From positions 96,001 through 160,000 of IMG/VR virus record IMGVR_UViG_3300027782_000032: DNA of 64,000 nt; one strand, written 5' to 3'. A model generated the notes under the pieces. That model ran no database searches and was not told where the DNA came from. It worked only from the letters and a program-made list of their open reading frames with translations. Position 1 is the stretch's first letter. Each line of letters begins with the position of its first letter. The translations under genes were made by a program, and so were the position numbers. The stretch comes from a virus. Shown piece after piece: positions 5,928 through 62,152 of this stretch.

Positions 5928-6755
5928 TTAGAGTGACCCTGGGGGCATGTATGGAAAGTCGGAGTCTGAATCATCATCTTCATCGCCAAACTCTTCGTCT
6001 TCTTCCAACTCCTCGTCAGTAGGGGCTCTGAACACGAAGTTTGCTTCCGATATCAACTCAAGCCTTGGCAGCTTTGGAAATATAATCCTCATAGCTTGCC
6101 TTATCTTTTCAACATCGTTGCATATCTCACAATCATCGGGGTCATTGACTCCTATGTCAACAGTTATCTCCATATAAGAGTCGGATGGATCGGAATCATA
6201 GCCTGAATCCTCCATATCCTGATCTTCATTAAAGGAGTAATCGCTGTCACTGTCTGAGTCACTATCGCTGTCTGAATCGCTATCGTATCCTGGCTCGCCT
6301 TCTCTACCCTTATGATCACCTAGGTCGTAGTCAACATGCCATTCTGAACTCTCAGAATCAGAGTCGCTATCTGAATCGCTGTCTGAGTCAACCTTGTCAT
6401 TACCAAGAATGCCAAGAGCCTCTTCCATCTGGTCGTCTGACATGTAAGGCTTAGTGGAGACGTCTCCACTGGATGGTATAATAGCTGAGCACTGCATAAA
6501 CAGAGGACCTACTGCTCCCTTAGTCTGGGAGTCCTTTACTGTCTTCTCAAAGTACTCTGATAGCTTGTACTTAGACTTGAAGCCTTTCTCATATAGTATC
6601 TTGATGATCTCCATGGAGTCATACACGGCTATAGTTCCGCTAGCTGGAGCTGGCACTACACCAACAAAAGCTCTGTCAAACCCTTTCATGAGCTTGATGT
6701 TAGGGTATAGCTTAGTTATTGCCTCTGCTGTCATGTGGTTTCGCTTATGCTTCAT
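5928..6755 (-). CDS. Conserved phage hypothetical domain plus acidic Ser-Asp repeat tail
   Basis: N-terminal GFDRAFVGV..IAVYD..II..L..EYF..GAVGP resembles a common phage family; two (DS)n tracts; very acidic C-terminus. Confidence 0.65.
   Translation of the reverse strand: MKHKRNHMTAEAITKLYPNIKLMKGFDRAFVGVVPAPASGTIAVYDSMEIIKILYEKGFKSKYKLSEYFEKTVKDSQTKGAVGPLFMQCSAIIPSSGDVSTKPYMSDDQMEEALGILGNDKVDSDSDSDSDSDSESSEWHVDYDLGDHKGREGEPGYDSDSDSDSDSDSDSDYSFNEDQDMEDSGYDSDPSDSYMEITVDIGVNDPDDCEICNDVEKIRQAMRIIFPKLPRLELISEANFVFRAPTDEELEEDEEFGDEDDDSDSDFPYMPPGSL
6235..6395 (-). repeat. Ser-Asp dipeptide repeats (two tracts)
   Basis: DSDSDSDSDSDSES and DSDSDSDSDSDSDSD in the translation. Confidence 0.85.
6454..6469. 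promoter_or_regulatory. Recurrent palindrome GTGGAGACGTCTCCAC, site 1 (in CDS, frame G-D-V-S)
   Basis: AGTGGAGACGTCTCCACT at 6453-6470. Confidence 0.8.
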
Positions 6756-9090
6756 CGCTATCCTCCTCAGATTCTTCGCTACCTTTAAGCACTTGGGTCA
6801 GAGCTAACACCGCTGGCACAGTCATACCACCAGCTATTAAAGCTTTTTGCAATGACGATAGCCCAGCAGGCGTTATCTTTTCTTTGATTTCTTTTACTAT
6901 CTCTTTAGCTGGGGGTTGAGCTTCCCCTTTTTGAGGTTGAGCTACCCCTTTTTGAGGTTGAGCTACCCCTTTTTGAGGTTGAGCTTCCCCTTTTGCTGGC
7001 TTATTAGTAGGTGGGAAGTAAGCGTCTGGATTGGTAGCGTCGACGTTCTTCCTAGTTATAGCCTTTAATATCTCTGGGCCCTCGTTTGCAGCTATTAAAC
7101 CTGGCGTAGATACTGCAGTTCTTGCTGCAGCCATGGGAGCAGCCTTTACAGCTTTAGTTGCGTTAAAGTTCTTAAGAGCCTTTAAAACAGCTGCTGGGCT
7201 ATCTTTTATATTTTTAAGCAGCTCTGGAATAGACTTTAACGATCTAGGACTTGCCAAACCACCTATGCCAGCTACTAAGTCTGCGTTAGGAATGTCTGCT
7301 GAATGAGCTCCAAATCCAAGAATTCCTTGCCCAAGAGCAATTGCTCTTCCGACAGGGGTTAAAGCTAAAGTATCAAAGAGTGTTTCTGTGCCTTTTTCTA
7401 ACGTACTTTTAGATGGGTTAAACAAAGGTAACGGGTCTACGCTTCCCACCGTAGAGTTGTTAGCTAAATCTTTTTGATTTTTATTGTTTAGATCTACAAG
7501 TGCTTTAAGCCTTTGCTTGTCTTCGTTTCTAGATACAGGGTCTGGATTTCGAAGTATTCGAGTGTCTAGTTCTTTAATTGCCTTGGCAGTATCTTGAATT
7601 CTTGTGTCGCTATCAATTACTTCCCTTGAGCTGTCTACTCCTTGTATAACCTTATTACCATTAAAAGGAGTGTTGTTAGATGTCGGTGGAGGAAGATTAG
7701 GTATAGGAACTTCAGGATCGATTCCAGGTACCAAACTTCCTAACGTCTTTGCAATATTAGTTAAAGAGTTGCCTATACCGCCTGCATAAAGAACGCCTTT
7801 ATCTACACCTTTAGAGCCAAATACAGGCTCGTAAGCTGGTCCACTGTCAAGGCTAGCTTTGTTAGTAGCATTGATTACCATTCGTTTGAGTATTGCGTCC
7901 TTATGCTCTTTTGGTAATCCCTCAAACGCACTTCTTATCTCAGGTGGAAGGTCAGTTAAATCGCCTGTCCTGTACTTATGAGAATGGTTGACTATGGCCT
8001 GAGCTAGGTCGCTTCTTCCTGCATCGCTAGCGCTTAGCCCAGACTTAGCAGCTCTAGCTCTAACATCGGCAAGCCTATTTGCGTTTATTAACTCTTCATT
8101 TGTCTTGTACTTTATAACAGGCTTCGCATCAGGAGGAGGAACAGGAAGAGCAGGAACATTTGAAGATAACGAAGCGCCAACTGGAACACTGTTCTGTGGA
8201 GTAGTTGTCTTTCCTCCAGAGGCTAAGAACTCTTCATACTTTTTATTAATGTCATCGCTGCCTGATTGAGCTGCTGCTGTGTTACTTATTCTATTAAGAG
8301 TCTCGCTTAGGTTCTTGTTAGCTACAGCAGCCTGCTCTGCTGTTTGAAACGTCCTTGGAGGAGGCGTAGGTGCAACTGTAGGAAGGTTTCTTACAGCGTC
8401 TTGAGCTTGAGCCCTTGATGTAGCGTTGCTAATACTGTCGCTAAGGTTCCTATTAGCTTCTCCAGCTTGAGTGCTATTAGGTATAAAAGGTGAAGGAGTG
8501 GGAGATGGCGTAGGTGTAAGGAAAGATGACACGCCATTCGCTAAGCTAGAGGCCAGACGGCCCTTACCTTCAGCTGCTAAGTTCTCTCCAAAGCTGCTTA
8601 ACAGCTTACCAAACCCTGATTCAGCGAAAGGTTTGGACGCGCTGTACTGTTTGTATGAGTTTACTAAGTTTTTAGAGTAATCAGCAGCAGCTGGGAATGC
8701 TTCCATAACCTTGGGAAGCGCTGCAGATGTCAAAGCTGACAGCAATTTGAACGATGCAGCCTTTATAACCTCAGATCTTTGACTAGTGTAATTTTGATCA
8801 GTGTACGCCTGGGCACGCAAACCTCCTAAATTATCATAAGCAATGATTTTATAAGGAGTTACGTCGGATTGGGTGGCTGTTTTATTAAGATTACCACCTA
8901 CGAGAGGCTGTGACAACTGTTTTTTCTTTAAAAAAGGATTAGTTGTCTTATCTCCTAGCTGGGTCTGCTCTTTCGGTTTGTTAGATAACCTAGAAGCACC
9001 TATGCCCATAGGCTTTAAGCCCCTAAAACTGCCACCTAAAGCCCCAGAAAGGGATATACCAGCCTGCTTATCACCTTGATTCAATGACAT
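6745..9090 (-). CDS. Large Ala/Pro/Ser-rich putative virion/internal protein
   Basis: 781 aa, low complexity, internal duplicated helix (ANRNLSDSI / ANKNLSETL), C-terminal hydrophobic segment. Confidence 0.55.
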   Translation of the reverse strand: MSLNQGDKQAGISLSGALGGSFRGLKPMGIGASRLSNKPKEQTQLGDKTTNPFLKKKQLSQPLVGGNLNKTATQSDVTPYKIIAYDNLGGLRAQAYTDQNYTSQRSEVIKAASFKLLSALTSAALPKVMEAFPAAADYSKNLVNSYKQYSASKPFAESGFGKLLSSFGENLAAEGKGRLASSLANGVSSFLTPTPSPTPSPFIPNSTQAGEANRNLSDSISNATSRAQAQDAVRNLPTVAPTPPPRTFQTAEQAAVANKNLSETLNRISNTAAAQSGSDDINKKYEEFLASGGKTTTPQNSVPVGASLSSNVPALPVPPPDAKPVIKYKTNEELINANRLADVRARAAKSGLSASDAGRSDLAQAIVNHSHKYRTGDLTDLPPEIRSAFEGLPKEHKDAILKRMVINATNKASLDSGPAYEPVFGSKGVDKGVLYAGGIGNSLTNIAKTLGSLVPGIDPEVPIPNLPPPTSNNTPFNGNKVIQGVDSSREVIDSDTRIQDTAKAIKELDTRILRNPDPVSRNEDKQRLKALVDLNNKNQKDLANNSTVGSVDPLPLFNPSKSTLEKGTETLFDTLALTPVGRAIALGQGILGFGAHSADIPNADLVAGIGGLASPRSLKSIPELLKNIKDSPAAVLKALKNFNATKAVKAAPMAAARTAVSTPGLIAANEGPEILKAITRKNVDATNPDAYFPPTNKPAKGEAQPQKGVAQPQKGVAQPQKGEAQPPAKEIVKEIKEKITPAGLSSLQKALIAGGMTVPAVLALTQVLKGSEESEEDSDEA
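6914..6995. repeat. 21-bp tandem repeat x4 (AQPQKG[EV])
   Basis: ggttgagct[ta]cccctttttga at 6914, 6935, 6956, 6977. Confidence 0.9.
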
Positions 9091-9103
9091 TAAAAGCTCC
9101 TTA

Positions 9104-9361
9104 TCAGCTAGTCGACACCAATGGCACCAGCTTTCCGTCCAACATTACCACTTTACCAGAAGAAACCTCTCTGCAGTGGTGTATGAACTCATCAAAGCAA
9201 GCTATTACAGCAAGCCTACTAGCGTTATTACCGTACTTTGACACAGGCTTGAGCTTACTTTGCAAGAAATCATCGACTAAACCGTCTAAAAGAGCTTCTT
9301 GCTCTTCTCCAGTGAATAGCTTTAGCTCTGGTCTGTCTTTAAATGTTATTTTTTTAGCCAT
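9104..9361 (-). CDS. Hypothetical protein
   Basis: 85-aa ORF packed between neighbours. Confidence 0.55.
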   Translation of the reverse strand: MAKKITFKDRPELKLFTGEEQEALLDGLVDDFLQSKLKPVSKYGNNASRLAVIACFDEFIHHCREVSSGKVVMLDGKLVPLVSTS

Positions 9362-9364
9362 TGG

Positions 9365-10095: not shown

Positions 10096-10153
10096 AGTCT
10101 AAGCACCTCAATAAAAGAGTTAACTATAATGGTACCCTATAACTGGCTATGGC

Positions 10154-10194
10154 TGATAGCTAAAAAAAGAGCAGTTTAACGTCCTGCTCAGGAC
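10154..10194 (-). terminator. Cassette A intrinsic terminator with junction motif (T)7AGCTATCA
   Basis: GAGCAG/CTGCTC stem next to A7 and TGATAGCT on the plus strand. Confidence 0.75.
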
Positions 10195-10200
10195 GGGTGG

Positions 10201-10590
10201 TTAGTAAGAAGGAGATTGAACTCTTCTCTCTATTCGTTCCCAAGCACCATCGTGCAAATCAACGTCGTAAGCTGATACAGCGTTGATAATTGCCTTAGAC
10301 AGAGACTTAGAGTCTCTACCGAAGTTGATGTTTATACGATGCTTTGTGACAGCTATTATAACATTCCCTGGTGTTATGACCATTACCTCCCATGGAGCTA
10401 GGTCAACCACCTGTGCCCAAGTATCCGAAAACAGCTTCCATTCTTCCGTCACTACTCTGAGACGTCCTTTGAAGTCGTCAAAGTCATGACTTGGGTTATA
10501 TTCCCCTGCAATTGAAGCCATGTGATTTGCCACCGACTGGAACACGTCGTTTATGTTCGCTTCGTTTAATCCAATGTTCAATATGTACAT
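10201..10590 (-). CDS. Hypothetical protein (cassette A)
   Basis: 129 aa, RBS AAGGAG, own promoter and terminator. Confidence 0.7.
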   Translation of the reverse strand: MYILNIGLNEANINDVFQSVANHMASIAGEYNPSHDFDDFKGRLRVVTEEWKLFSDTWAQVVDLAPWEVMVITPGNVIIAVTKHRININFGRDSKSLSKAIINAVSAYDVDLHDGAWERIERRVQSPSY

Positions 10591-10682
10591 AACTCTATCT
10601 CCTTAAAATATAAACATGCAAACACAGCCAACGAAAAGTTCGTAGGACTGCTCACGTTTTTACAGGTACGTGTAACCACTAT

Positions 10683-10710
10683 ATTATGACGCACTTATGG
10701 GTTGGATTAA
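10683..10710 (-). promoter_or_regulatory. Conserved cassette promoter A, TTAATC-N16-CATAAT
   Basis: Six copies in the window share TWAATY-N12-(G/A)CGT/GTGT-CATAAT at constant spacing. Confidence 0.7.
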
Positions 10711-10726
10711 GTGGAGACGTCTCCAT
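10711..10726. promoter_or_regulatory. Palindrome site 2, abutting the -35-like element of promoter A
   Basis: GTGGAGACGTCTCCAT. Confidence 0.8.
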
Positions 10727-10730
10727 TGGC

Positions 10731-10762
10731 TGATAGCTAAAAAAAAGCAGGATGATCCTGCT
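10731..10762 (-). terminator. Cassette B terminator with junction motif
   Basis: TGATAGCT-A-tract then AGCAGG/CCTGCT stem. Confidence 0.75.
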
Positions 10763-10768
10763 CTCGGG

Positions 10769-11146
10769 TTACCCCTCTTGACCAACGACTCCCCACAGAC
10801 TGAAAGGAGAAATCTCCTTCCACTCGGTAATGTCGTTTGACCGCATGGGCTTCCACCCATTTGCACGGTCCAAGCACATGGTAATGTGCTTGCGGACGTT
10901 CCGACTAGGAACGTCCGTATCGACTTCAACGGCCATTACGCCGTCGAGTCGACCGACACGAACTACTTTTAGTTCGTGTCGTTGACCATTGAGATCCTGT
11001 GCCATACTGTTACATATGGGAAGAAGGTCAACGGTCATATGGTGGCATATGACCTCGAAGTGTTTGGGCACTTCGAGGTTTGCGTGCATCCACGCCACCA
11101 AGATGGATACACTGTCCTTTTCAAGGACGCAAGCCGTGTAGGCCAT
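10769..11146 (-). CDS. 2H phosphoesterase (tRNA-ligase CPD-like), cassette B
   Basis: Two HxT motifs (CHHMTV, KHITM) plus G.KP..SN.I..W; start moved to MAYTAC, which has RBS AGGAG. Confidence 0.7.
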   Translation of the reverse strand: MAYTACVLEKDSVSILVAWMHANLEVPKHFEVICHHMTVDLLPICNSMAQDLNGQRHELKVVRVGRLDGVMAVEVDTDVPSRNVRKHITMCLDRANGWKPMRSNDITEWKEISPFSLWGVVGQEG

Positions 11147-11212
11147 TTTTAGTCTCCTAAAAATAAGACGAGGCGCCATCTATTTGATGACTGGTACCTA
11201 TACTTGCACCTT

Positions 11213-11240
11213 ATTATGACACACTTATGGGTTGGATTAA
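11213..11240 (-). promoter_or_regulatory. Conserved cassette promoter B
   Basis: Identical to promoter A except one base. Confidence 0.7.
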
Positions 11241-11256
11241 GTGGAGACGTCTCCAC
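11241..11256. promoter_or_regulatory. Palindrome site 3, abutting promoter B
   Basis: AGTGGAGACGTCTCCACT at 11240-11257. Confidence 0.8.
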
Positions 11257-11260
11257 TATG

Positions 11261-13365: not shown

Positions 13366-13381
13366 GTGGAGACGTCTCCAC
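13366..13381. promoter_or_regulatory. Palindrome site 4, abutting promoter E
   Basis: AGTGGAGACGTCTCCACT at 13365-13382. Confidence 0.8.
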
Positions 13382-16241: not shown

Positions 16242-17763
16242 CAGCTACTGGGCTGGCCTCCTCCTCTTTAGCTGACTTAGTTTCAATAGCTTCATCAATT
16301 GAAGGCACATTGTCGATGAAAGTGTCGATTGGATTAAACTCTTGAGGCTCAGGATCAGGTAGTGGAGACGCCTCCAATAGGAGCAGCTCTTTAAGTCCTT
16401 CAAGCTTTGTTGGAGTCAGCTGGTAATCACAAGATGCTAGAATGCACCTTACGTGCCCTCCTTCAACTTCGTCAGAAGGTAAAACTTCTTCTAAAGTAAC
16501 TCCGTAGTTGTCCTTTAGGATACTGTAAGACTTGCTAAGGAAAGCTGAACCTATTGAGTAGTTAGATTGAATGCAGTTGTTTATTACTATCTTAGTTCCT
16601 GGCACGCACAGCCTAAGTATGTGTGCAAAATCAGACGCTATAGTCTCTGGTGACCTGCCGCCATCAATGCTTACTATGGTAACGTTAGGCATGTCAGCGG
16701 TTGCGGTTGGTAGGGTTTCTCTAGTATCACCTTTGATAAGCTGAACTAAGCTAGCACCTGCAGCTGTAATCTTCTGTCTAGCTAAATCCCTGCTTGCTGG
16801 ATCATGCTGGCCCTTTAGGTGCTCCCTTTCTTTAATCTGTTCCGTAGCTTTTTCAAACATGTCAAAACCGTAGAACTCAATGTTAGTCCTACCAAGCCTC
16901 TTAGCTAAAGCTACTAAGGTAGCTGACCTGTCTGCGTTATGTACGCCAATATCGAGTATGCGGTAAGGCTTATTCTTCTTACTTTCGTTAATAGTGGAAT
17001 TAACTGCTAAAGTAAGGTGATCGTATCTGCTCATCTCTGACTCCTTGTTAAAAGGTAACTCTATTCCAGACCTATAATACTTAGATATGTCTTTAGGCTT
17101 TGGAAGCTTAGACAAACCAAGCTCTTTTCTAAACTGTGCATAATCCTCTTGATGCACGTCTCCGCCACATCCCAACAATGGATATAGCGACAATACAGCT
17201 ACGCCTGCCTTCTCTCTAGCTAGCCTCCTAGCTTTATAAGTCCATAGTCTATACTCTCTATAGACTTCTGAAGCAGATAAACCATGAAACTGAATATGCT
17301 GGTCATGCCCGTGATGGTCACCAGCTATATCGCCTAGGTCTACTCCGACTAGAATAACAGATCTAGCACCCATGCGACAGGCTAAATCAATAGCTGTTAG
17401 CTGTATTCCTTTTCCAAGGAACAAAGTATCAGACTTACCACCTATGAACTCCTTCCATTCATAAGAGGTATAAAACACATATATTGACGGGTCATTAAGC
17501 CGTAAAAACGTTGGAGCTTTATGCTTCACTAGCCACTTAGTTGGCTTTACCTTTTTAGCTTTAACAAGCTCTCTATATTCAACCTCAAGCTCTGGATGCA
17601 CAGTTATGCTGTACATAGGTTCAATAAGCTTATAGGCTTGATTAAGACCTATCGTTACTCTTCCTTTAAAGAAATTCTTTGGAAACAACCTAGCTGTAGG
17701 CCCTGTTCCAACCACATATATGTCTGCACCAACGTGCTTCTTAATTAAAGTATTTATTCTCAT
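15850..17763 (-). CDS. DUF115/MptE-like (GT-associated) domain fused to a class I SAM methyltransferase, with an acidic/Cys/Arg-rich tail
   Basis: YVVGTGPT..IGLN..LVGVD (N-terminal); ILDIGVHNA..YGFDMF..IKGDT..IDGG (methyltransferase); internal AAGGAG-N6-ATG at 17034. Confidence 0.65.
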   Translation of the reverse strand: MRINTLIKKHVGADIYVVGTGPTARLFPKNFFKGRVTIGLNQAYKLIEPMYSITVHPELEVEYRELVKAKKVKPTKWLVKHKAPTFLRLNDPSIYVFYTSYEWKEFIGGKSDTLFLGKGIQLTAIDLACRMGARSVILVGVDLGDIAGDHHGHDQHIQFHGLSASEVYREYRLWTYKARRLAREKAGVAVLSLYPLLGCGGDVHQEDYAQFRKELGLSKLPKPKDISKYYRSGIELPFNKESEMSRYDHLTLAVNSTINESKKNKPYRILDIGVHNADRSATLVALAKRLGRTNIEFYGFDMFEKATEQIKEREHLKGQHDPASRDLARQKITAAGASLVQLIKGDTRETLPTATADMPNVTIVSIDGGRSPETIASDFAHILRLCVPGTKIVINNCIQSNYSIGSAFLSKSYSILKDNYGVTLEEVLPSDEVEGGHVRCILASCDYQLTPTKLEGLKELLLLEASPLPDPEPQEFNPIDTFIDNVPSIDEAIETKSAKEEEASPVAVETFPASGGCCNTDVQSVRLCEDSCGKPAGELCEQLGGTCGRREPVVESCHMGEVSEAPAAPVQVREERQEPDKVVEQGNTASVDPKPQDNSSGELRPEVSTELDAGNRRGSRRRRRRSGSDDECAGPQS

Positions 17764-22479: not shown

Positions 22480-23283
22480 TTAAAGGACGCCTTCTTCTAT
22501 AACCTTTGCAGGGTCGACGTCTCTTTTGCTAGCTCTATCATCATACTCTTTTTGTGGAGACGTCTCCACTGGCTTATCTTCAACAAGCTCTTGTATTAGT
22601 TCAGCCGGCATAGACTTCTCTTGAGAGATTGGAACCAAGCAATGCTCGTAAGGTCCAAACTTGTGCTGAAGAATAGGAGGTTTAACTATAAACAAGCTGT
22701 CTATACCTTCTACCATCACCCCTATGTAAGCGTCAGCCTCGTTAGCTAGTTTGCTGGTAAACGGATAAAACTCTCCAGGCCCTGCATACCTCATATCAGT
22801 TGTAAGCACTAGATACCCTGGGGTTATTGTAGCACCGTGATACTTGTAGTTTAAAGTTGCTAAGCTTGGCATGTCAAAGTACACCCTTACCATAGGAGGT
22901 GTAACTGATGCCTCTGGCAGCTGTGCTGCAGGATGAACATGATTAGCACCATCAATCGTAGATGCTACCGTGCCTAGACTAGGAGGAGTAGTAGCAGATG
23001 CAGTAGTAGAGAATCGCCTTAAGTTATCAGATATCATCTTGGACCTTTCTGCTTGAGCAAGTTTTCTAAGGTCCTGACTATTGTCATCTTTGACCTTGTA
23101 AGGATTGGCTGTTGGCTTAATAGTATTTAAATCAATAACAAAGGAGTCACTCTCGTGCGGGTCTACTATCATCTTGGTAACTGATCTGCTGTGGTCTATA
23201 GTAGACCCTCCTGTTACTGGTGCTAGTCTTGAATCTGACATTAGTGAATCCTTCCTAAGTTTAACTCTACTGTAACCTAACAC
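22480..23283 (-). CDS. Hypothetical protein
   Basis: 267-aa ORF directly upstream of the portal-like gene. Confidence 0.65.
   Translation of the reverse strand: MLGYSRVKLRKDSLMSDSRLAPVTGGSTIDHSRSVTKMIVDPHESDSFVIDLNTIKPTANPYKVKDDNSQDLRKLAQAERSKMISDNLRRFSTTASATTPPSLGTVASTIDGANHVHPAAQLPEASVTPPMVRVYFDMPSLATLNYKYHGATITPGYLVLTTDMRYAGPGEFYPFTSKLANEADAYIGVMVEGIDSLFIVKPPILQHKFGPYEHCLVPISQEKSMPAELIQELVEDKPVETSPQKEYDDRASKRDVDPAKVIEEGVL
22554..22569. promoter_or_regulatory. Palindrome site 5 (in CDS, frame V-E-T-S-P)
   Basis: GTGGAGACGTCTCCAC. Confidence 0.8.
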
Positions 23284-29633: not shown

Positions 29634-30383
29634 TCACCCTTCTTTCTTAAATCTGTCGTTCCATACTTCAAGTTGAGTCTTTTTAGAGCCAAGTGGCGGC
29701 TCGTTATAACCTCGTCTATCAGATGCAGATTCTTTTCCGTTATCGTCTGCGTTTACAGCGACGCCAGCCTTATAGCTTGAAAGTTTAAGGCCTTGATGCC
29801 TTATTAGCTCTCCTAAAAGGACATCTCCTCCGCAATGCTTAAGCATTGGATGAGGCCACTTATACTTGTTTATCACACTTGTCTTAATAATCCACCACCC
29901 TCCTGTAGCAAACTTTGTCATCTCTGGTCTTCCAGGAAGAGGTCCACTTACAAACCAGTCACAGTGGAGACGTCTCCAATCGGTCTGTCCTGGTAATATG
30001 GGTATGTGATATATAGCGCCTGCCATGTCTGATTCGCTATCGTTCATAAACTTCTCAGTAGCTGATAGCCAAGCCAATGGATTAGAGTCTTTTATGAAGC
30101 TATCGTCATCAAACCACATGACGTAGTCAGTGGTAATAGGCTTTGCTTTGAAAAGCCTATCCATCATAGGGTATTTGAATATCTGTGGGTTAAAGCTAAG
30201 GTTGACTAACCTGTCGCTATGAATGAATAGGTCTGAGACTACCTTATTGGTAGCCTCAGACGTCTCGTTTAATCCTATTCTAACTTCGACTCCGCTTTTA
30301 TAAAGCTGGCTTACAGGGCTTAAACACCTTGAAGCCAGCTTAGGGTAGTCTCCGTACATCAGACAGCATACTGTAGTGCTCAA
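29634..30383 (-). CDS. GT-A fold glycosyltransferase-like protein
   Basis: YVMWFDDDS; FATGGWW; GGDVLLG. Confidence 0.6.
   Translation of the reverse strand: MSTTVCCLMYGDYPKLASRCLSPVSQLYKSGVEVRIGLNETSEATNKVVSDLFIHSDRLVNLSFNPQIFKYPMMDRLFKAKPITTDYVMWFDDDSFIKDSNPLAWLSATEKFMNDSESDMAGAIYHIPILPGQTDWRRLHCDWFVSGPLPGRPEMTKFATGGWWIIKTSVINKYKWPHPMLKHCGGDVLLGELIRHQGLKLSSYKAGVAVNADDNGKESASDRRGYNEPPLGSKKTQLEVWNDRFKKEG
29964..29979. promoter_or_regulatory. Palindrome site 6 (in CDS, frame W-R-R-L)
   Basis: GTGGAGACGTCTCCAA. Confidence 0.8.
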
Positions 30384-30390: not shown

Positions 30391-31299
30391 TCAGCTACTT
30401 AGCTTAGAGTCTATAGACGCTGGCCTCCTTGACTTAGTCTTGGATAGCGCTTCAGACTTGTCAGCGTCGGTTAACGCCTTCTTGGCAGTGGCCCTTTCTT
30501 CTATGGCCTTCTTGGTAACAGATGGAAGGTTTTCAGTAAATACTAAAATCCTAGCCAACATGGTACTAAGAGTAGCTACAGTCTCGTGCATCTCCTCTAC
30601 TTTTGATAGAAACTCATCAGGCTTTTCTATCTGGTTTACAACCTCAGTAAAGTCAGCTAGCACGTTCTCAACCTGAGCTTTAATCTTTGCCTGATATCTT
30701 TCAGTACCACTAATAACTTGCTTAATTGTAGAAGACACTTCTGAGCCCCTGTTAGCAACCCTCTTAGCTGTAGTGCCCCCAAACTCAGACTTAATCTCAG
30801 ACATAAGATCCCTAACCGACAACTTACCAGATATAGCCTTATCTATCATCTTTCTTCTATTATCGTGTGGATCCGTTTCTGAAGAGCTTGGAAGATGCAT
30901 AACGCTAGCAAAGTGAGACCAAGTTAAAACAAACCCAGAGTCTTTAGCTCGCTGGACTACCTTGTTAAGCTCTGACTTAGTAGCGTACATAGAGCTGAAA
31001 GTAATCGTCTTATAAACTGTTGACTTATCAACTGAAAGAGCTTTAGATAGCTGCTCTACAGCCTTGTCTCCTAGCTTAGGGTTACCCCTAACTGTTCTAG
31101 CTACACTACCCCTGTCGTAGTTAAAGCTGATCATGTCGTCTCTAAACTCTTGATAAGCCTTCTTTTCCTTCTCGTAAATTTCAAACAGCTCGTCGCTCAT
31201 TGAGTCAGTTATATCTGGCTTGTTAGGCTCACTTGATTTGACATGCTGATTTGCAGCCAACTCAGTATCCTTTTCAATTGCTTCTAATTTGTCTTTCAT
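30391..31299 (-). CDS. DUF1016-N/ParB-like HTH DNA-binding protein with a C-terminal coiled coil
   Basis: G..AVEQLSKAL..KSTVY HTH, LTWSHF, R..I..A..LSVRDL..I; no ParB CTPase motif seen. Confidence 0.55.
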   Translation of the reverse strand: MKDKLEAIEKDTELAANQHVKSSEPNKPDITDSMSDELFEIYEKEKKAYQEFRDDMISFNYDRGSVARTVRGNPKLGDKAVEQLSKALSVDKSTVYKTITFSSMYATKSELNKVVQRAKDSGFVLTWSHFASVMHLPSSSETDPHDNRRKMIDKAISGKLSVRDLMSEIKSEFGGTTAKRVANRGSEVSSTIKQVISGTERYQAKIKAQVENVLADFTEVVNQIEKPDEFLSKVEEMHETVATLSTMLARILVFTENLPSVTKKAIEERATAKKALTDADKSEALSKTKSRRPASIDSKLSS

Positions 31300-31326: not shown

Positions 31327-32517
31327 CTATTCACCGGAAACACTATCCGGCAAAACCAACCTGTTAAAAAACAAATTCCAAGCTACTCGCTCGTACTTGT
31401 CCGTGTTGGAGAAGTTGAGAGATCTCTGCTCAAAACTCTCCATAGTTATAGAACGCACCAAGTCCATAGCAGATCTACTTGGCCAGTTCTTAGATCTATC
31501 TAGCATGAGGAAATTGTTTGAAGCAGGCTCGTCACCAGTCAGAACCATAGACAGGCATCGCCTAGACATAAAGTAAGTTAGACCACCCCTGTCAGTTAAG
31601 AACTCAACTAATGAACTGAACCTAGCTTCATCCTTCTCTTCACCTGTAAAGCCTAGAAGCCTACCCTGAGCATCTGACTCTTTCTTAGCCAGAGACTCTT
31701 TAGAAAATGTCTTGTTTTCAAGCTTAGATACTACACCAACAATGAGTTGAGATAACTTACCAAGAAGGTCTCTTCCTGAATGAGCTACTCTTCCCATTCT
31801 TCCATAAGAAGACTGCATAGTGGCTCCCTTACTATCAATAAGAACTACAGCCGCTTTTATGGCTGAGTCTCCTATCTCGCTGTTAACAAGCCTTATGCCT
31901 GGTGTAAGCCCTGTCTCATCGTAGCCATCCATAGAGTACACTAGGGATACGCGTCTTCCGGACAGCTCAGCAGAGAAGAAAGAAAGGCTTACGCTACAAG
32001 AACCCATAACACTAGAAACAGCCGATAAAAAGTCACTATTGGATAACCTCCTGTATCTATTGCCTACTAGAGCCTCTATGACCCTCGTCTCAGAGTTTCT
32101 AATGGCCTGGAAACCAAACAATCTGCCAAACCTTTTCTTGAGAACAAGGTTGTATAAGGATGCAGCCTCTCCGACTGTAAAGTCTTCGTCAGGGTCTGCT
32201 TTAACCTTTGACGGTTTATCCATGGCGTCTGCAGACCTCCTCATGCCTAATAAGTCGGCAAGAGAAGATGCCAGACCTGCAGATAGAGCTTTGCAGATCT
32301 GGCGCATAGCCAACCATGAGATACGATCGCCCCCAGCTGTTAAAGCTTTTCTAGAAAGTATAAGCTGATCCTCGGAGTCTATCATCCAAGAATCAGTAGT
32401 CCTTTCACAGTCAGCTAAAACATTAACTAGCTTTTCATAGTCGGTTCTATGGAACAACGCACCCCGTAAGGAGACGGCGAGGTTGGTAGGTTCGTTACTA
32501 GGGGATCTTGTAGCCAT
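31327..32517 (-). CDS. DUF932-like protein
   Basis: ALVGNRYRRLSNSDFL..GIRLVNSEIG pattern. Confidence 0.55.
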   Translation of the reverse strand: MATRSPSNEPTNLAVSLRGALFHRTDYEKLVNVLADCERTTDSWMIDSEDQLILSRKALTAGGDRISWLAMRQICKALSAGLASSLADLLGMRRSADAMDKPSKVKADPDEDFTVGEAASLYNLVLKKRFGRLFGFQAIRNSETRVIEALVGNRYRRLSNSDFLSAVSSVMGSCSVSLSFFSAELSGRRVSLVYSMDGYDETGLTPGIRLVNSEIGDSAIKAAVVLIDSKGATMQSSYGRMGRVAHSGRDLLGKLSQLIVGVVSKLENKTFSKESLAKKESDAQGRLLGFTGEEKDEARFSSLVEFLTDRGGLTYFMSRRCLSMVLTGDEPASNNFLMLDRSKNWPSRSAMDLVRSITMESFEQRSLNFSNTDKYERVAWNLFFNRLVLPDSVSGE

Positions 32518-45018: not shown

Positions 45019-46069
45019 TAGGCCACTCCTTTGATGCTTCTGGCATCGACTCTCCTATGTCTTGAAACTGAGATTGGAGACGTCTCCACAACTCCATCTT
45101 TAAAGCGCCTGGGTCTTCATGCTTATCCATCTTAACTTTTATGATCTTAGACCTTGGAGCAGCCTGCTGAAGCTTGTCAACTAAAGACTCAGCCTTGTAA
45201 GCCACGTCTCCGTCTAAAGCTATAGCTATGGGCTTACCATTAAAGTTCTGTCCGATTAAAGCAAGCTGACCAGCACTACAGTCACTGCCGAATATAGCTA
45301 CACCTGCCGGACCTATTGACCAAACATCTATTGGACCCTCACACACTACTATCATTGGTTGTAGCTTCGCATTGTCTATGTTGTAAAGAAGCATGGACTT
45401 CTTCATTCCAACTGGGTTTATATATTTTTGTTTCTTCTTCAATGGGTCGTCATAAATTATTCTTGCCTGATAACCCATTAACTTTGAACCTTGAAATATG
45501 GGTATGTAAAGTCTTTCTCTAAGGGTTGGAATAGCCATGTCGTCTATCCAGCCTACACCTAGATACTTATCAAGAACGGCTGGGTTATATCCCCTAGACT
45601 CAACATACTTTATGGCTTCGTGATCCTTGCTAAGAGACGATAGGCTTGTAAGTCTTTCTGGAGGTCTGCATTCAGTAAGAGCTATCAATGCCTCAGAAGA
45701 CATAGGCTTATCAACTACTGAAAGAGTTATCTTAGAAGACGTATTGAACAACCACATGTGAAGTTGATCTAAGTTAAGCTTACCTAGCTCGCCTCTAGTG
45801 CATGCTGTCTCGTTAAAGCAGTTTGCCATGTGTCTGTACTCAAACCATCTGTGGTTTATGTACAACCTATGTCTTGTCTCTTTACAAAAAGGACAGCAGA
45901 CCCTGTAATATTCTCCATTTACTATAGAGGTAGGCCTCTCTCCATTAGATGAGGGGCGCATCACCATGCCGACCCCTCTATTATTAACATAGACCTGACC
46001 AAACAACTTCTTAAGCTTAAAGTATAGTTCAGGGCACAACACGTCATCATAACTAGTCGAAGTGCTCAT
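45011..46069 (-). CDS. DNA primase (Zn finger + TOPRIM)
   Basis: CCPFC..CF..C; VCEGPIDVW; ALDGD; EDPG. Confidence 0.85.
   Translation of the reverse strand: MSTSTSYDDVLCPELYFKLKKLFGQVYVNNRGVGMVMRPSSNGERPTSIVNGEYYRVCCPFCKETRHRLYINHRWFEYRHMANCFNETACTRGELGKLNLDQLHMWLFNTSSKITLSVVDKPMSSEALIALTECRPPERLTSLSSLSKDHEAIKYVESRGYNPAVLDKYLGVGWIDDMAIPTLRERLYIPIFQGSKLMGYQARIIYDDPLKKKQKYINPVGMKKSMLLYNIDNAKLQPMIVVCEGPIDVWSIGPAGVAIFGSDCSAGQLALIGQNFNGKPIAIALDGDVAYKAESLVDKLQQAAPRSKIIKVKMDKHEDPGALKMELWRRLQSQFQDIGESMPEASKEWPND
45074..45089. promoter_or_regulatory. Palindrome site 7 (in primase CDS, frame W-R-R-L)
   Basis: TTGGAGACGTCTCCAC. Confidence 0.8.
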
Positions 46070-51924: not shown

Positions 51925-54039
51925 CTATTTATAAAGAGTCAGCGTATGATCGCACATGCGCTCCATAGCTTTCTCGTGACTGACTACAATAACTTGCAGT
52001 CCAGAGGACTTAGACATAGCTCTTAGTCTATTGAAAGCTGTGTCTAAACATTCGATGTTGTCATCGTCTAGACCTACGGTTGGTTCATCAAGTACTAACA
52101 GGTTTACACCTGAAGCTACTCCAAACTGAACAGCTAGCCTGAATGCAAGAGCCAGAACAACCTTCTCACCGCCTGACAATCTAGCCGCTGGTAAGTCTCT
52201 TCCGTCATTGAACTTTGCCCAGAACACAAGCTCGTCATCAGAGTAAACTCTGAACGGAGCGTTAAAGTCTTCTAGATACTCATTCAACTTAATCACTGTC
52301 CTCTTTAAGTAGTTTACCGTAAGTCTCTTCGGTAAGTTAGACTTATGCATAACTTCTTTAAGATTTTCAAAATGATCCTTAGCAACTTTATTAACCCTAG
52401 CTTCTTCTATGTCTCCAACCAGCTTATCTCTTCTATTATATAAGTAATCTAAAGTTTCAACAGTTGCTTTTGATTGCTCTTCAAATCGTATTTTCTTTTC
52501 TCTGTCTTGATTTACTAAATTGATGCTATCACACAATACTCTTTCTTGCATGTAGTAGTCTTCACTTATGTTGCATTCTTTACTTCTAGTTTCAATCTGA
52601 GACAAAAGTGAGTCTCTGGTTGCTTTTAAAGAAGTTATGCAAAAGTCTAAAGCAGAAAGCTTTGATGACAAAGACTCATAGGATGTTCTAAGCTCAGTAA
52701 AGGTAGAAATAAACTTATTAACCTCGTCTTCAGAAACAGAAGGCTGCTCAGGTCTTTCAGTCTGAAGTTTTAGTGTAATTAACTCAAGCTTACTGTTAAG
52801 ACCAGCTAAGTCTGAAGAGTGTTTGTAATTAGCAGTGTCGTACTCTCTGCTAAGCTGATACTGCTTCTTCATGTGGTCTATGAGTGGAGACGTCTCCACT
52901 AGATGCTTAGATATAGCGTCTATTGCAGCTAAAAGTACTTCTCCGGTAGTACCACATACAGGGCACTCTTTCTTTGAAGTAAGTTGAATTAGGTTCTGCC
53001 TCTTAGCTTCTAAAGCCCCAGCCGACTGTGAGTACTTCTCAAAATCTAAACCACTAGACTCTATGTAAGGAGACGGCTTTATAGGAGCAGATGCAACTAG
53101 TACTGATATACTTTCTTCAACTATAACAAGCTGAGCCTCATTAGCTGCTTTGCTATTGTCGTACTTATGTATAAGACTCCACTGATACTGATGTTTTTTA
53201 TACTCAGATAGAGCTGCATCTGAGTCTTTAACTAAAGACAGGTCATCAACCTTTGCTGAAAGAGGAGGCCTAGCTTCTTCTGCCTGACTTAGATCAGACA
53301 AAACTAAACTTAGAGTTTCTGAACACTTGTTGATGTCACGTTTTACATCTTTCTTTCTTCTTACTTCGCTGAGGTCTTTTTGAAGCTCAGTGTCGTCTAC
53401 TACGTTTAAAGACACTTCCTTCAAAGATTTCGATATAGACTCAAGTAGTAGAGTCTTCTCTCGTATCTGAGCAAGTACAGACTCTACAGTTTCAGATGGA
53501 ACCTGCACTAATATCTTAGATGAATATTTATTTATCTCGTCGTAGCAAAGTTCTGCTTTGTCTAAACCGTATAGCGACTGCAGAGCTGACAGCCTGTCAG
53601 ATTTAGGTAAAGTAAATATGCTGAACATCTGCCATTGGTCTACAAATATGTAGTCAGACAATATGTTAGAGCTTACTCCGACCAAACCTTCGATAGCAGT
53701 AGTAACTTCTCTGTCTCCAGTCAGTGGAGGCATAGAGTTTATAATTAAAGACCGCTTGTTAGGTCTTAGGTTCCTCTTTATAACAGCCTTACCGCCTGTT
53801 GTAGAAAATGTTAGCTCTACAAATGACTCATCTTTATCTGAGCATATTTTATTAATGTTTTCTGATAGAACACCTTCATTCCTTTTAAAATCTCCAGTAA
53901 GAGCTGCGTACGCTCCCTTGATAGCGTTAGACTTTCCTCCACCGTTAGGCCCTGTTATGGCAGTTATGCCATCAAGAAAAGTCCAGTCAAGTTCTTGATG
54001 CTGGCAGAAGTTACGCAACCGAAGTTTATCAAGTCTCAT
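51925..54039 (-). CDS. sbcC: SbcC/Rad50-like SMC ATPase
   Basis: GPNGGGKS, central CPVCG zinc hook, LSGGE, LVLDEPT, VVSH. Confidence 0.92.
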   Translation of the reverse strand: MRLDKLRLRNFCQHQELDWTFLDGITAITGPNGGGKSNAIKGAYAALTGDFKRNEGVLSENINKICSDKDESFVELTFSTTGGKAVIKRNLRPNKRSLIINSMPPLTGDREVTTAIEGLVGVSSNILSDYIFVDQWQMFSIFTLPKSDRLSALQSLYGLDKAELCYDEINKYSSKILVQVPSETVESVLAQIREKTLLLESISKSLKEVSLNVVDDTELQKDLSEVRRKKDVKRDINKCSETLSLVLSDLSQAEEARPPLSAKVDDLSLVKDSDAALSEYKKHQYQWSLIHKYDNSKAANEAQLVIVEESISVLVASAPIKPSPYIESSGLDFEKYSQSAGALEAKRQNLIQLTSKKECPVCGTTGEVLLAAIDAISKHLVETSPLIDHMKKQYQLSREYDTANYKHSSDLAGLNSKLELITLKLQTERPEQPSVSEDEVNKFISTFTELRTSYESLSSKLSALDFCITSLKATRDSLLSQIETRSKECNISEDYYMQERVLCDSINLVNQDREKKIRFEEQSKATVETLDYLYNRRDKLVGDIEEARVNKVAKDHFENLKEVMHKSNLPKRLTVNYLKRTVIKLNEYLEDFNAPFRVYSDDELVFWAKFNDGRDLPAARLSGGEKVVLALAFRLAVQFGVASGVNLLVLDEPTVGLDDDNIECLDTAFNRLRAMSKSSGLQVIVVSHEKAMERMCDHTLTLYK
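52884..52899. promoter_or_regulatory. Palindrome site 8 (in sbcC coiled coil, frame V-E-T-S-P)
   Basis: AGTGGAGACGTCTCCACT at 52883-52900. Confidence 0.8.
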
Positions 54040-61736: not shown

Positions 61737-61809
61737 GATTCAATCCTAGAAATGTAGTTAATTTGTAAATTAAATAAGTCTGCAGAGCCTATTTTAAAGT
61801 AGACTCTGC

Positions 61810-61863
61810 AGTAAACAAAAGTAAACTGTTTACCGGTTAGTAAACGAAAGTAAACCGTTTACC
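61810..61863. repeat. 25-bp direct repeat x2 built from GTAAAC/GTTTAC hexamers
   Basis: agtaaacaaaagtaaactgtttacc (61810) and agtaaacgaaagtaaaccgtttacc (61839). Confidence 0.8.
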
Positions 61864-61870
61864 AAAAGTG

Positions 61871-62152
61871 CTAGTTAAAAGAAACAACAGCACCCTTGGG
61901 ATCGGCTACTACAAACCAAGACCCTTCAACCCTGGCATTGTTATCGCCAAGAGTCCATATGTTAACTCTCCACCTGTCGCTATAAACGTTTATGGCTTCA
62001 GATTTTATAACTCCAGAAGGATAGGTCACAAGTTTAGAAAGGTTGTTAATAATAACCTTGTCTATTTGAACCTTACCTTCTTTCTTAAGCTTTGGAGACG
62101 TCTCCAACTGCTCATCTTCTTTATGATCAATAGCCATTCTACTTACCTCCAA
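61871..62152 (-). CDS. Hypothetical protein
   Basis: 93 aa; NVYSDRWRVNIW. Confidence 0.6.
   Translation of the reverse strand: MEVSRMAIDHKEDEQLETSPKLKKEGKVQIDKVIINNLSKLVTYPSGVIKSEAINVYSDRWRVNIWTLGDNNARVEGSWFVVADPKGAVVSFN
62092..62107. promoter_or_regulatory. Palindrome site 9 (in CDS, frame L-E-T-S-P)
   Basis: TTGGAGACGTCTCCAA, perfect 16-mer. Confidence 0.8.

What the first reader, a model, noticed from the sequence alone, without database searches (positions are those of the whole stretch)
6454..62107. Genome-wide 14-16 bp palindrome (K-TGGAGACGTCTCCA-H) embedded in genes in all three frames
Seen: the exact core TGGAGACGTCTCCA starts at 6455, 10712, 11242, 13367, 22555, 29965, 45075, 52885 and 62093, with a one-mismatch copy at about 16363. 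A rough expectation at about 40% GC is around 1e-4 copies per 64 kb. Six copies lie inside unrelated CDSs (primase, SbcC, a GT, three hypotheticals) and read as GDVS, (V/L)ETSP or WRRL, so all three frames are used and the constraint is on DNA, not protein. Three copies abut cassette promoters. Outside the cluster the spacing is about 7-15 kb. Established: dispersed palindromes inside genes characterise chromosome-organising sites (parS/ParB, NBS/Noc, SBS/SlmA, matS/MatP); parS is also a 16-mer with an ACGT centre. Inference: this phage has its own genome-organisation, segregation, packaging or transcription-roadblock system. An alternative is a mobile REP-like mini-element.
Basis: partly seen in the sequence, partly recalled or inferred. 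Interest (0 to 1): 0.88.

Follow-up and report, generated by a model that had tools for sequence, protein, structure and literature searches.

The report
Evenly spaced palindrome array in phage
An uncultured 190-kb phage and its relatives write one exact 14-18-base DNA palindrome about every 7.5 kb through genes and gaps alike; it is most likely a chromosome-wide row of docking sites for a phage DNA-binding protein, for which a ParB-like candidate is named here.

Summary
The window has 9 exact TGGAGACGTCTCCA and one 1-mismatch copy. The whole 190,371-bp virus record has 23 exact and 3 near copies; chance expects about 1e-4 per 64 kb. The full unit is the 18-bp palindrome AGTGGAGACGTCTCCACT.

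Copies lie in all three reading frames and in short gaps. Spacing is far more even than chance (median 7.3-8.1 kb in every relative; CV 0.35-0.6 against about 0.9).

Between genomes only 65-75% identical in DNA, the core is 96% conserved and its flanks about 60%. Some sites have moved 1-6 kb. Sites arise by in-place substitution, not insertion. Variant sites keep one perfect half and never show compensating changes, which fits a dimer on double-stranded DNA and argues against a hairpin. More distant relatives carry their own palindromes in the frame T-NNN-GRC|GYC-NNN-A.

No ParB CTPase domain or ParA is encoded. A conserved 302-aa protein (window 30391-31299) has a DUF1016_N domain whose model best matches ParB/Spo0J/Noc/KorB DNA-binding domains (Z 7.7-9.0), followed by long helices. 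Its putative reading helix differs in each lineage that has a different palindrome. The binder and the function remain inferred.

This scan has noted similar evenly spaced palindromes in other large phages.

The parts
6455..6468 (.). palindrome copy (exact), inside a 275-aa ORF on the minus strand, read as SGDVST
10712..10725 (.). palindrome copy (exact), intergenic. On the minus strand it lies between a terminator tail (T-run + AGCTATCA) and a cassette promoter (-35-like TTAATC, -10 CATAAT at 10683-10688). The site centre is at about -42.
11242..11255 (.). palindrome copy (exact), same terminator-site-promoter arrangement (-10 at 11213-11218)
13367..13380 (.). palindrome copy (exact), directly upstream of a third cassette promoter (-10 at 13338-13343)
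16363..16376 (.). one-mismatch copy TGGAGACGCCTCCA inside the 637-aa glycosyltransferase-like gene (LEASP). The same variant sits at the same place in G002 and G004.
22555..22568 (.). palindrome copy (exact) near the 3' end of a 267-aa gene (VETSP). Positionally conserved in G002, G004, G005, G008 and G009; G006 keeps the peptide there (VEASP; its DNA was not aligned).
29965..29978 (.). palindrome copy (exact) in a 249-aa gene (WRRLHC), about 0.4 kb downstream of the candidate binder gene. Exact at the homologous place in the six relatives whose DNA aligns there (G001, G002, G004, G005, G008, G009).
45075..45088 (.). palindrome copy (exact) near the 3' end of the primase-like gene (ELWRRLQ)
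52885..52898 (.). palindrome copy (exact) in the SbcC-like gene (LVETSP). Absent at this place in G001 and G004-G009, which have a site 0.9-4.4 kb away instead. Made by substitution, with no gap in the protein alignment.
62093..62106 (.). palindrome copy (exact) in a small minus-strand ORF (LETSP in the G002 orthologue)
30391..31299 (-). candidate reader of the palindrome. A 302-aa protein with a DUF1016_N-type helical DNA-binding domain (residues about 34-176, with the HTH-like stretch ALSVDKSTVYKTITF), followed by three long C-terminal helices.
31327..32517 (-). 396-aa protein always encoded directly upstream of the candidate; in some lineages the stop and start overlap. The model is confident (pLDDT 82.8, pTM 0.81) but has no family and no PDB fold match. 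Possible partner.

Best explanation
The palindrome is a cis-acting site on double-stranded DNA. It is read by a two-fold symmetric (dimeric) sequence-specific protein that the phage itself encodes. Selection keeps about one site per 7-8 kb, so that every part of the chromosome lies within a few kb of a bound protein. Where no intergenic gap is available, the site is written into tolerant parts of proteins. The most likely reader is the 302-aa protein at window 30391-31299. It has a ParB/KorB/Noc-like helix-turn-helix DNA-binding domain without the ParB CTPase domain, and its long C-terminal helices could dimerise it or bridge sites.

The array would then act as a scaffold or marking system for the whole phage chromosome. 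It could work by looping or bridging, or by recruiting a replication, recombination or transcription factor that has a limited range.

Shown: the array, its even spacing, its DNA-level conservation, its lineage-specific versions, and the fold-level resemblance of the candidate. Inferred: that a protein binds the site, that it is this protein, and what binding achieves.
For: Enrichment and exactness:
- 23 exact copies in 190 kb. No other conserved repeated word of 10 or more bases exists except a terminator tail.

Even spacing in every genome:
- G000 has CV 0.46 against 0.94 for random placement (P < 1e-4).
- Median gaps are 7.3-8.1 kb in G000-G005.
- One-mismatch sites fill the gaps: G005 has CV 0.35 with them and 0.65 without.

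Purifying selection on the DNA word:
- The core is 96.4% identical and the flanks 58-61%, over 34 homologous pairs in 64-76%-identical alignments.
- 47-71% of G000 sites per divergent relative have a site within 400 bp of the projected homologous place. The others have moved about 0.5-6 kb, so site density is kept even where position is not.
- All three frames and intergenic gaps are used. Sites arise by in-place substitution.

Dimer on duplex DNA rather than hairpin:
- Lone half-sites are not enriched (7 seen against 8.4 expected).
- Variant sites almost always keep one perfect half. No symmetric compensating pair of changes was seen.
- The commonest variant (G2 to A) wrecks the hairpin: -6.8 to -1.8 kcal/mol.

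Private versions in distant relatives with the same gene order:
- D1: TCGCGGC|GCCGCGA, 5 exact and 1 near copy in 58 kb (expected 0.001).
- L192: CTCGGC|GCCGAG, 5 exact copies in 21 kb at 4.0-5.8-kb steps (expected 0.014).
- L193: TAGAGGC|GCCTCTA.
- The 18-mer is not a repeat of any of 185,579 species genomes: 7 hits, about the chance number.

The candidate:
- It is the only strong HTH-like hit in the ORF set.
- Pfam DUF1016_N matches weakly here and is on record for relatives.
- Foldseek's top 20 are ParB/Spo0J/Noc DNA-binding domains.
- VIA-align gives Z 9.0 / rmsd 3.1 A / 109 residues to ParB 6t1f, 8.7 to Spo0J-parS 4umk, and 8.0 to Noc-NBS 6y93.
- In an unbiased scan of 48,161 chains, ranks 1-2 are ParB 6s6h (Z 7.8) and Spo0J 1vz0 (Z 7.7); the KorB DNA-binding domain scores Z 5.7.
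- The putative reading helix D[KR]ST[VM]YKT is invariant in the TGGAGAC clade, although the proteins are only 36-50% identical.
- It reads RSMVYRA, KGFVYKM and RGLIYKA in the lineages with other palindromes.
- L191, which has the same helix, has the same palindrome.
Against: - No binding was or could be tested.
- The fold Z-scores (7.7-9.0) fall in the range that the tool itself calls common for helical models. There is no sequence-level match to any solved ParB.
- The helix-to-motif covariation is confounded by phylogeny, because every protein differs between these lineages. It rests on four motif classes, and two of them are seen on only about 20 kb each.
- The ParB_N CTPase domain and a ParA-type ATPase are absent, so the known spreading mechanism is not available.
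- An unrelated complete 105-kb phage (G011) carries 22 exact copies of the L192-type palindrome without a detectable homologue of the candidate. Such palindromes therefore do not need this family.
- No copy of the site lies inside the candidate gene itself.
- In D1 all sites are intergenic, lie after stop codons and are often followed by T-rich DNA. There they could double as terminators.
Confidence: 0.6

Rival explanations
1. The sites are targets of a phage site-specific nuclease or nickase. Candidates are the conserved 116-aa HNH endonuclease at G000 42908-43258 and the lambda GpA-type large terminase. Regularly spaced nicks or cuts would serve packaging, recombination-dependent replication, or clamp loading for late transcription.
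For: - An HNH endonuclease is conserved in the clade (phrog_144, E 9e-9; Pfam HNH 21.2 bits).
- The large terminase is GpA-type, and lambda's GpA nicks a partly symmetric site (own knowledge).
- The replication module resembles that of T5-like phages, which carry site-specific nicks (PMC3517423).
- Near-perfect exactness of 14 bp is more typical of nucleases than of regulators.
- Nick sites of LUZ24-like phages are also positionally conserved.
Against: - All known phage nick sites are asymmetric and confined to one strand. A palindrome would be nicked on both strands and would break the genome into pieces of about 7.5 kb.
- The ends of the metagenomic contigs examined do not coincide with sites.
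- Variant sites with one degenerate half persist at array positions.
- Nothing links the HNH gene to the sites.
Confidence: 0.15
2. The element works as a hairpin in single-stranded nucleic acid. It could be an RNA stem-loop (terminator, processing or stabilising site) in the long one-directional transcripts, or a DNA hairpin used as a priming or promoter signal, like the hairpin promoters of the phage N4 virion RNA polymerase.
For: - 88% of ORFs lie on one strand, so each site is transcribed.
- The 18-mer can form a 7-bp stem with a 4-nt loop (folded with 2-nt flanks, as a 9-bp stem: -6.8 kcal/mol as DNA, z -4.7).
- In D1 all sites lie after stop codons, and four of six are followed by T-rich sequence.
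- Three window sites lie next to terminator-promoter junctions.
Against: - Most sites in the G000 clade are inside genes, with no T-run.
- No compensatory changes occur. G-to-A variants that destroy the stem recur at array positions.
- Those changes are non-synonymous (Gly to Arg) where a synonymous, wobble-compatible change was available.
- The loop is itself palindromic and conserved.
- No Rfam family matches.
Confidence: 0.08
3. The sites are read by a host protein: a global regulator, a nucleoid protein or a Chi-like recombination signal. The phage exploits them across its chromosome.
For: - The word is invariant across phages whose own proteins are only 40-70% identical. A conserved host reader would explain this.
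- A 14-bp palindrome with a central CG has the format of LacI/PurR-type operators (own knowledge).
Against:
- The 18-mer is at chance level in 185,579 species genomes.
- Lone half-sites are not enriched, so a Chi-like single-strand signal is unlikely.
- A sponge or decoy role would not need even spacing.
Confidence: 0.07
4. The identical 18-mers are recombination anchors that promote exchange of modules between co-infecting relatives, like the boundary sequences of lambdoid phages or the PeSL cassettes of T4-type phages. Alternatively they are a mobile REP/MITE-like mini-element.
For: - The same word is present in all relatives at homologous places.
- Three copies sit in mobile-looking promoter cassettes.
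- One gene carrying a site lies at a different genomic place in G001.
Against: - Sites are not enriched at boundaries between conserved and variable segments or at gene ends (P 0.23-0.77).
- There are no insertion footprints; sites are in-place substitutions in conserved genes.
- 18 bp is short for homologous exchange.
- This model does not predict even spacing.
Confidence: 0.04

Closest known systems
17-bp dyad repeats of Cluster O mycobacteriophages (TGTTCGG-NNN-CCGAACA; Cresawn et al. 2015, PMC4351075)
   Same: A phage-clade-specific palindrome with invariant 7-bp arms. It is present more than 30 times and spread along the genome, partly inside ORFs. Its function is unknown.
   Different: The Cluster O repeat has a 3-bp spacer. 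24 of its 34 sites are intergenic or close to the 5' end of a gene. Even spacing was not reported and no reader was proposed. Here the halves abut, most sites are inside genes in all three frames, spacing is regular at about 7.5 kb, and relatives carry their own versions.
KorB and its OB operators on IncP plasmid RK2 (PMC11790492); more broadly ParB-parS, Noc-NBS, SopB-sopC
   Same: Palindromic sites with abutting half-sites are dispersed over a replicon and read by a dimeric HTH domain. The candidate's model best matches exactly these DNA-binding domains. Action at a distance from a few sites is established for KorB.
   Different: Those proteins are CTP-dependent clamps with a ParB N-terminal domain, which is absent here. 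No ParA is encoded. Chromosomal parS sites cluster near the origin (own knowledge), and KorB's long-range action is on promoters. Here sites are evenly spaced and mostly inside coding sequence.
YhcG/DUF1016 family (Pfam PF17761 N-terminal domain plus a PD-(D/E)XK nuclease domain)
   Same: The candidate carries the DUF1016_N domain: LTWSH and LSVRDL motifs, a weak Pfam hit here, and precomputed hits in relatives.
   Different: The candidate has no nuclease domain. Three long helices follow the N-domain instead. The family's DNA target is not established in the literature known to me.
Localized single-strand interruptions of T5-, phiKMV- and LUZ24-like phages (PMC3517423)
   Same: A short exact word recurs along the genome at positions conserved among relatives, and its function is unknown. 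The DNA polymerase's nearest named relatives here include T5-like phages, at about 25% identity.
   Different: Nick sites are asymmetric and lie on one strand only. Here the word is a perfect palindrome. Nicks could not be tested.
Stoperators of Cluster A mycobacteriophages (own knowledge)
   Same: About 25-35 copies of a 13-bp repressor site are scattered through the genome, including inside genes, and are read by a phage protein.
   Different: Stoperators are asymmetric and oriented with transcription. They are not evenly spaced. They belong to temperate phages with an immunity repressor.

Membership tests
ParABS partition system | ParB N-terminal CTP-binding domain (PF02195) | tested here: not met
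   The six-frame search of the whole 190-kb record found no match at E <= 1. The control search rang in 11 of 14 genomes.
ParABS partition system | ParA-type deviant Walker ATPase | tested here: not met
   PF13614 found no match at E <= 1 in the record, while the control rang in 14 of 14 genomes. The protein next to the candidate has no Walker A motif. Other ParA models were not tried.
ParABS partition system | ParB-type HTH DNA-binding domain | tested here: inconclusive
   There is fold-level resemblance only: Z 7.7-9.0, rmsd 3.1-3.8 A over 105-114 residues, top ranks in three searches. No sequence-level match exists.
ParABS partition system | Palindromic site of about 16 bp with abutting half-sites | tested here: met
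   The site is a 14-18-bp perfect palindrome with an ACGT centre.
KorB/Noc-type dispersed sites with a sliding clamp | CTPase clamp that loads at the site and slides | tested here: not met
   No ParB_N domain was found. The N-terminus of the candidate (residues 1-33) is short and of low confidence.
YhcG/DUF1016 | DUF1016_N domain (PF17761) | tested here: inconclusive
   The hit scores 22.8 bits, E 1.1e-4, below the 32.8-bit cut-off. Precomputed PF17761 hits exist on six relatives.
YhcG/DUF1016 | C-terminal PD-(D/E)XK nuclease domain (PF06250) | tested here: not met
   Pfam finds no such domain. The model shows only three long helices after residue 184.
Phage localized nick sites | Asymmetric site present on one strand only | tested here: not met
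   The site is a perfect palindrome, identical on both strands.
Phage localized nick sites | Physical nick at the site in virion DNA | not testable with these tools
REP/MITE-like mobile palindromic element | Discrete insertions, mostly intergenic, varying between relatives | tested here: not met
   Protein alignments show substitution without gaps. Sites are positionally conserved. 89 of 105 sites in six genomes lie in ORFs.
Intrinsic terminator | GC-rich hairpin followed by a T-run at gene ends | tested here: not met
   There is no T-run after G000 sites and most are intragenic. The genome's own terminators are a different class, with a T-run followed by AGCTATCA. The feature is partly met in D1.
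Chi-like recombination signal | Short oriented word, over-represented on its own | tested here: not met
   Lone half-sites: TGGAGAC 7 against 8.4 expected, GTCTCCA 39 against 26.9 expected.
Cluster O-type phage dyad repeats | Clade-specific invariant inverted repeat, tens of copies along the genome | tested here: met
   This is a descriptive class without a known mechanism.

The most novel reading that the evidence does not exclude
A widespread family of about 300-aa phage proteins has 2,649 cluster representatives. Each has a ParB-like HTH domain without the CTPase, followed by a helical tail, and in every contig examined it is paired with an upstream protein of about 390 aa of unrecognised fold. 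Each member would read its own private palindrome in the frame T-NNN-GRC|GYC-NNN-A. Selection would space that palindrome evenly (4-8 kb) through the whole chromosome, coding sequence included. Together these would form an undescribed phage chromosome-scaffolding or genome-marking system that sits in the recombination/replication module.
Probability: 0.3. Interest if true: 0.88.

Novelty: new variant of a known kind. Interest (0 to 1): 0.78.

Why it matters
Dispersed palindromes read by ParB-family proteins organise bacterial chromosomes and plasmids. No comparable system is described for lytic-type large phages, and full-text searches found nothing on this word or on evenly spaced phage palindromes.

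Here a phage clade pays a visible cost to keep one exact word every 7-8 kb: amino-acid changes in primase, SbcC, glycosyltransferases and other proteins. Relatives keep the spacing habit while changing the word. That points to a chromosome-wide function with a limited range of action.

The work gives a concrete, cheap test: one 302-aa protein, one 18-mer, and three natural specificity variants. If the protein binds, it would define a new use of the ParB-type fold without CTP. It would also suggest a function for the DUF1016_N domain, and it would help explain the similar arrays that this scan keeps finding in other large phages.

Tried and rejected
No result.
- The 'atlas' fold library was not available.
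- Similarity to named phages: megablast found nothing. tblastn of the polymerase gave only about 25% identity, the top hits including T5-like phages.
- Pfam/PHROGs scans of about 90 ORFs found no classical repressor, HU/IHF, recombinase or topoisomerase.
- Two small 'conserved basic proteins' next to the large terminase look like non-genes. One is a low-complexity translation and the region shows only ordinary nucleotide conservation of about 69%.
- Rfam and tRNA scans of the whole record found nothing.
- Profile searches of the candidate and two neighbours against PDB sequences found no informative match; only helical-bundle noise hit the C-terminal part.
- The 396-aa neighbour has a confident model but no PDB fold match by Foldseek.
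- Restriction avoidance as the cause of the ACGC centre in G006/G007: GACGTC and ACGT are not depleted there.
- Sites as module boundaries: no enrichment.
- Short contigs of two further family members (L186, L188; 14-17 kb) and L194 (21 kb) showed no repeated palindrome. They are too short to judge.
- Scan of viral contigs for the D1 16-mer: single hits only.
- Scan for the L192 14-mer: mostly single hits, plus G011, an unrelated phage with a regional array and no homologue of the candidate.

Full report
**1. The observation**

The window holds nine exact copies of TGGAGACGTCTCCA at the stated starts. It also holds a one-mismatch copy at 16363 and a doubtful two-mismatch copy at 16228. Dinucleotide-preserving shuffles expect 0.09 matches at up to two mismatches.

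The window is bases 96001-160000 of a 190,371-bp IMG/VR virus record, rated 92% complete and linear. The whole record has 23 exact and 3 one-mismatch copies. The flanks extend the unit to the 18-bp palindrome AG-core-CT: A 17/23, G 18/23, C 15/23, T 19/23. Apart from a tandem repeat confined mainly to the first 5 kb of the record, no other word of 10 or more bases is both frequent and shared with relatives. The one exception is the tail of the genome's terminators, a T-run followed by AGCTAT.

**2. Context**

About 88% of ORFs (200 of 227) lie on one strand. The phage is very distant from named phages. Its recognisable genes are:

- a UDG-PolA fusion polymerase, a DnaB-like helicase, a primase-like protein, SbcCD-like proteins and a UvsX-like recombinase;
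- a sigma-70-like factor;
- a lambda GpA-type large terminase and a ribonucleotide reductase, both on the opposite strand, and a major head protein;
- PhoH and a CsrA homologue;
- several glycosyltransferase-type genes.

Over six genomes, sites are read as SGDVST (41), (V/L)ETSP (35) or WRRL (13), or lie in short intergenic gaps (16). Many intergenic sites sit between a stop codon and the next ribosome-binding site.

Three window copies (10712, 11242, 13367) lie on the minus strand between a terminator tail and a cassette promoter. The site centre is near -42.

**3. Relatives**

At least nine further IMG/VR records carry the same word. G002 is 90% identical in DNA to this genome; G001 and G003-G005 are 69-74% identical.

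- Over 34 homologous site pairs in alignments of 64-76% identity, the 14 core positions are 96.4% identical. The two flanking dinucleotides are 79-87% identical and the surrounding 45 bp 58-61%.
- When G000 sites are projected through orthologous genes, 47-71% per divergent relative have a site within 400 bp of the projection, most of them within tens of bp. The rest have a site about 0.5-6 kb away. For example, the SbcC site exists only in G000 and G002, while each other lineage has a site elsewhere in the same interval.
- Protein alignments show that sites are made by substitution within existing codons, without gaps.

The element is therefore ancient, selected at the DNA level, and not an insertion.

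**4. Spacing**

Gaps in G000 have CV 0.46, against 0.94 for random placement (P < 1e-4). When one-mismatch sites are included, the median gap is 7.3-8.1 kb in G000-G005 (and in G008 and G009), and CV falls to 0.35-0.61.

One-mismatch sites fill what would otherwise be long gaps, so they are working members of the array. Sites are not enriched at boundaries between conserved and variable segments or at gene ends. What is selected is one site per interval. This implies a function with a limited range along the DNA and a cost per site.

**5. Duplex DNA or hairpin?**

- Lone half-sites are not enriched, so the unit is the dyad.
- In about 40 variant sites, one half is almost always perfect and no symmetric compensating pair occurs.
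- The commonest change (G2 to A, 11 sites) reduces hairpin stability from -6.8 to -1.8 kcal/mol. In the SGDVST frame it costs a Gly-to-Arg change, although a synonymous wobble-compatible change was available.

This pattern fits cooperative binding of a dimer to duplex DNA. It argues against an RNA or single-strand hairpin. In the most distant members of the clade (G006/G007) the centre is fixed as ACGC. Restriction-site avoidance does not explain this.

**6. Private versions**

Walking along a Logan contig that encodes a 22-27%-identical homologue of the candidate protein (D1, GC 58%, same gene order) gave 58 kb. It holds five exact and one near copy of AG-TCGCGGCGCCGCGA-CT, against 0.001 expected, with gaps of 3.9-15 kb. 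It is the only repeated palindrome of 12 bp or more there, and it is absent from the G000 clade.

- L192 (GC 66%, from a 108-kb contig) has CTCGGCGCCGAG five times in 21 kb at 4.0-5.8-kb steps, all inside genes including thymidylate synthase.
- L193 has TAGAGGCGCCTCTA with degenerate copies 4-6 kb apart. This word differs from the G000 half-site at exactly the two positions that most often vary inside the G000 clade.
- All versions share the frame T-NNN-G-R-C|G-Y-C-NNN-A.
- The G000 18-mer occurs only 7 times in 185,579 species genomes, about the chance number.

**7. A candidate reader**

No ParB_N domain and no ParA-type ATPase are encoded. Scans of about 90 ORFs found no classical regulator.

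The 302-aa protein at window 30391-31299 gave a weak DUF1016_N hit and the only strong HTH-like pattern in the genome, ALSVDKSTVYKTITF.

- Its AlphaFold model has pLDDT 75.5, and 75-93 over most of residues 30-175.
- Foldseek's top twenty matches are all ParB/Spo0J/Noc DNA-binding domains, several solved on parS or NBS DNA.
- A second aligner gives Z 9.0, 8.7, 8.2, 8.1 and 8.0 over 109-115 residues.
- A Foldseek-independent scan of 48,161 chains again puts ParB (Z 7.8) and Spo0J (Z 7.7) first, with the KorB DNA-binding domain at Z 5.7.

These Z values are middling for helical domains, so this is a fold-level lead and not proof. Residues 184-286 form three long helices.

The gene lies in the recombination/replication module. 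In every contig examined it is preceded by a protein of about 390 aa, sometimes with overlapping stop and start. That neighbour has a confident model (pLDDT 82.8) and no PDB fold match by Foldseek. An exhaustive profile search finds 2,649 cluster representatives of the candidate family, nearly all 230-400 aa.

The putative reading helix is invariant (D[KR]ST[VM]YKT) in the TGGAGAC clade although the proteins are only 36-50% identical. It reads DRSMVYRA in D1, SKGFVYKM in L192 and DRGLIYKA in L193. L191, which has the G000-type helix, has the G000 palindrome at the two expected places. This covariation points the right way, but it is confounded by phylogeny and rests on four motif classes.

**8. 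Counter-evidence and limits**

- G011, an unrelated complete 105-kb phage, has 22 exact copies of the L192-type palindrome confined to its last third, and no detectable homologue of the candidate.
- In D1 the sites could double as terminators.
- No binding, nicking or expression data could be obtained.

**9. Comparison with what is known**

The nearest described case is the 17-bp dyad repeat of Cluster O mycobacteriophages, whose function is unknown. The nearest understood mechanisms are KorB-OB, ParB-parS and Noc-NBS. This system lacks their defining CTPase domain and differs in its even, mostly intragenic placement.

Localized nick sites of T5-, phiKMV- and LUZ24-like phages share the positional conservation. 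However, they are asymmetric and lie on one strand only.

Notes from this scan report evenly spaced private palindromes in several other large phages. They also treat DUF1016_N as a ParB-like reader of palindromes. I read the DUF1016 notes only after reaching the candidate independently, and I treat them as leads.

**10. Verdict**

This is a real, strongly selected, evenly spaced array of a lineage-specific palindrome. The best explanation is a set of docking sites for a phage-encoded dimeric DNA-binding protein (0.6). The DUF1016_N/ParB-HTH-like 302-aa protein is the leading candidate (about 0.3). The downstream function is open.

Noticed in passing
window 10153-13382: Tandem minus-strand cassettes of promoter, small gene and terminator. 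The promoter is TTAATCC-N15-CATAAT. Each terminator is a different hairpin followed by a T-run and the invariant AGCTATCA. The T-run + AGCTAT tail is strand-specific and shared across the clade (8-11 copies per genome).
   Followed up: partly
window 13449-13814 (-): A 121-aa cupin-type protein (Cupin_2 / sugar-isomerase-like) is 96-98% identical in G002-G004, G006, G008 and G009, while neighbouring proteins are about 60% identical. This suggests recent exchange or unusually strong constraint. It heads a glycosylation gene cluster.
   Followed up: no
window 56096-56281 (+): A CsrA homologue (Pfam E 5e-21) is encoded on the minority strand. The distant relative D1 also has one, likewise on the opposite strand, with a palindrome copy at the end of the gene.
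   Followed up: no
window 41812-45018 (-): The DNA polymerase A is fused to an N-terminal uracil-DNA-glycosylase-like domain. The fusion is conserved in all relatives, including the distant ones.
   Followed up: no
window 31327-32517 (-): A 396-aa protein always lies next to the DUF1016_N protein. It has a confident AlphaFold model (pTM 0.81) but no Pfam, PHROG or PDB match. It has a conserved NSEIGDS motif.
   Followed up: partly
G000 bases 215-5228 (outside the window; locus L160): Dense repeats of CCTTGGTTTCCT and CCTTGATAGCCT (31-42 copies) lie in the first 5 kb of the record, probably a repeat protein gene near the contig end.
   Followed up: no
G000 170827-172692 (+) (L165:10827-12692): The lambda GpA-type large terminase is one of the few genes on the opposite strand. 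The 340 bp upstream holds no convincing ORF.
   Followed up: partly
G011 (IMGVR_UViG_3300017963_000011) 70050-104279; locus L267: An unrelated complete 105-kb phage with terminal repeats carries 22 exact copies of TCTCGGCGCCGAGA, all in its last third at 0.4-6-kb steps. It has no homologue of the candidate protein.
   Followed up: partly
G000 178334-179371 (-) (L165:18334-19371): A MoxR/CbbQ-type AAA+ ATPase (AAA_5, E 2e-22) lies next to a 663-aa protein. Both are conserved in the clade.
   Followed up: no
L190 950-3778 (D1 contig): The distant relative encodes a 942-aa protein with Hint (intein-type) and cytosine DNA methylase domains.
   Followed up: no
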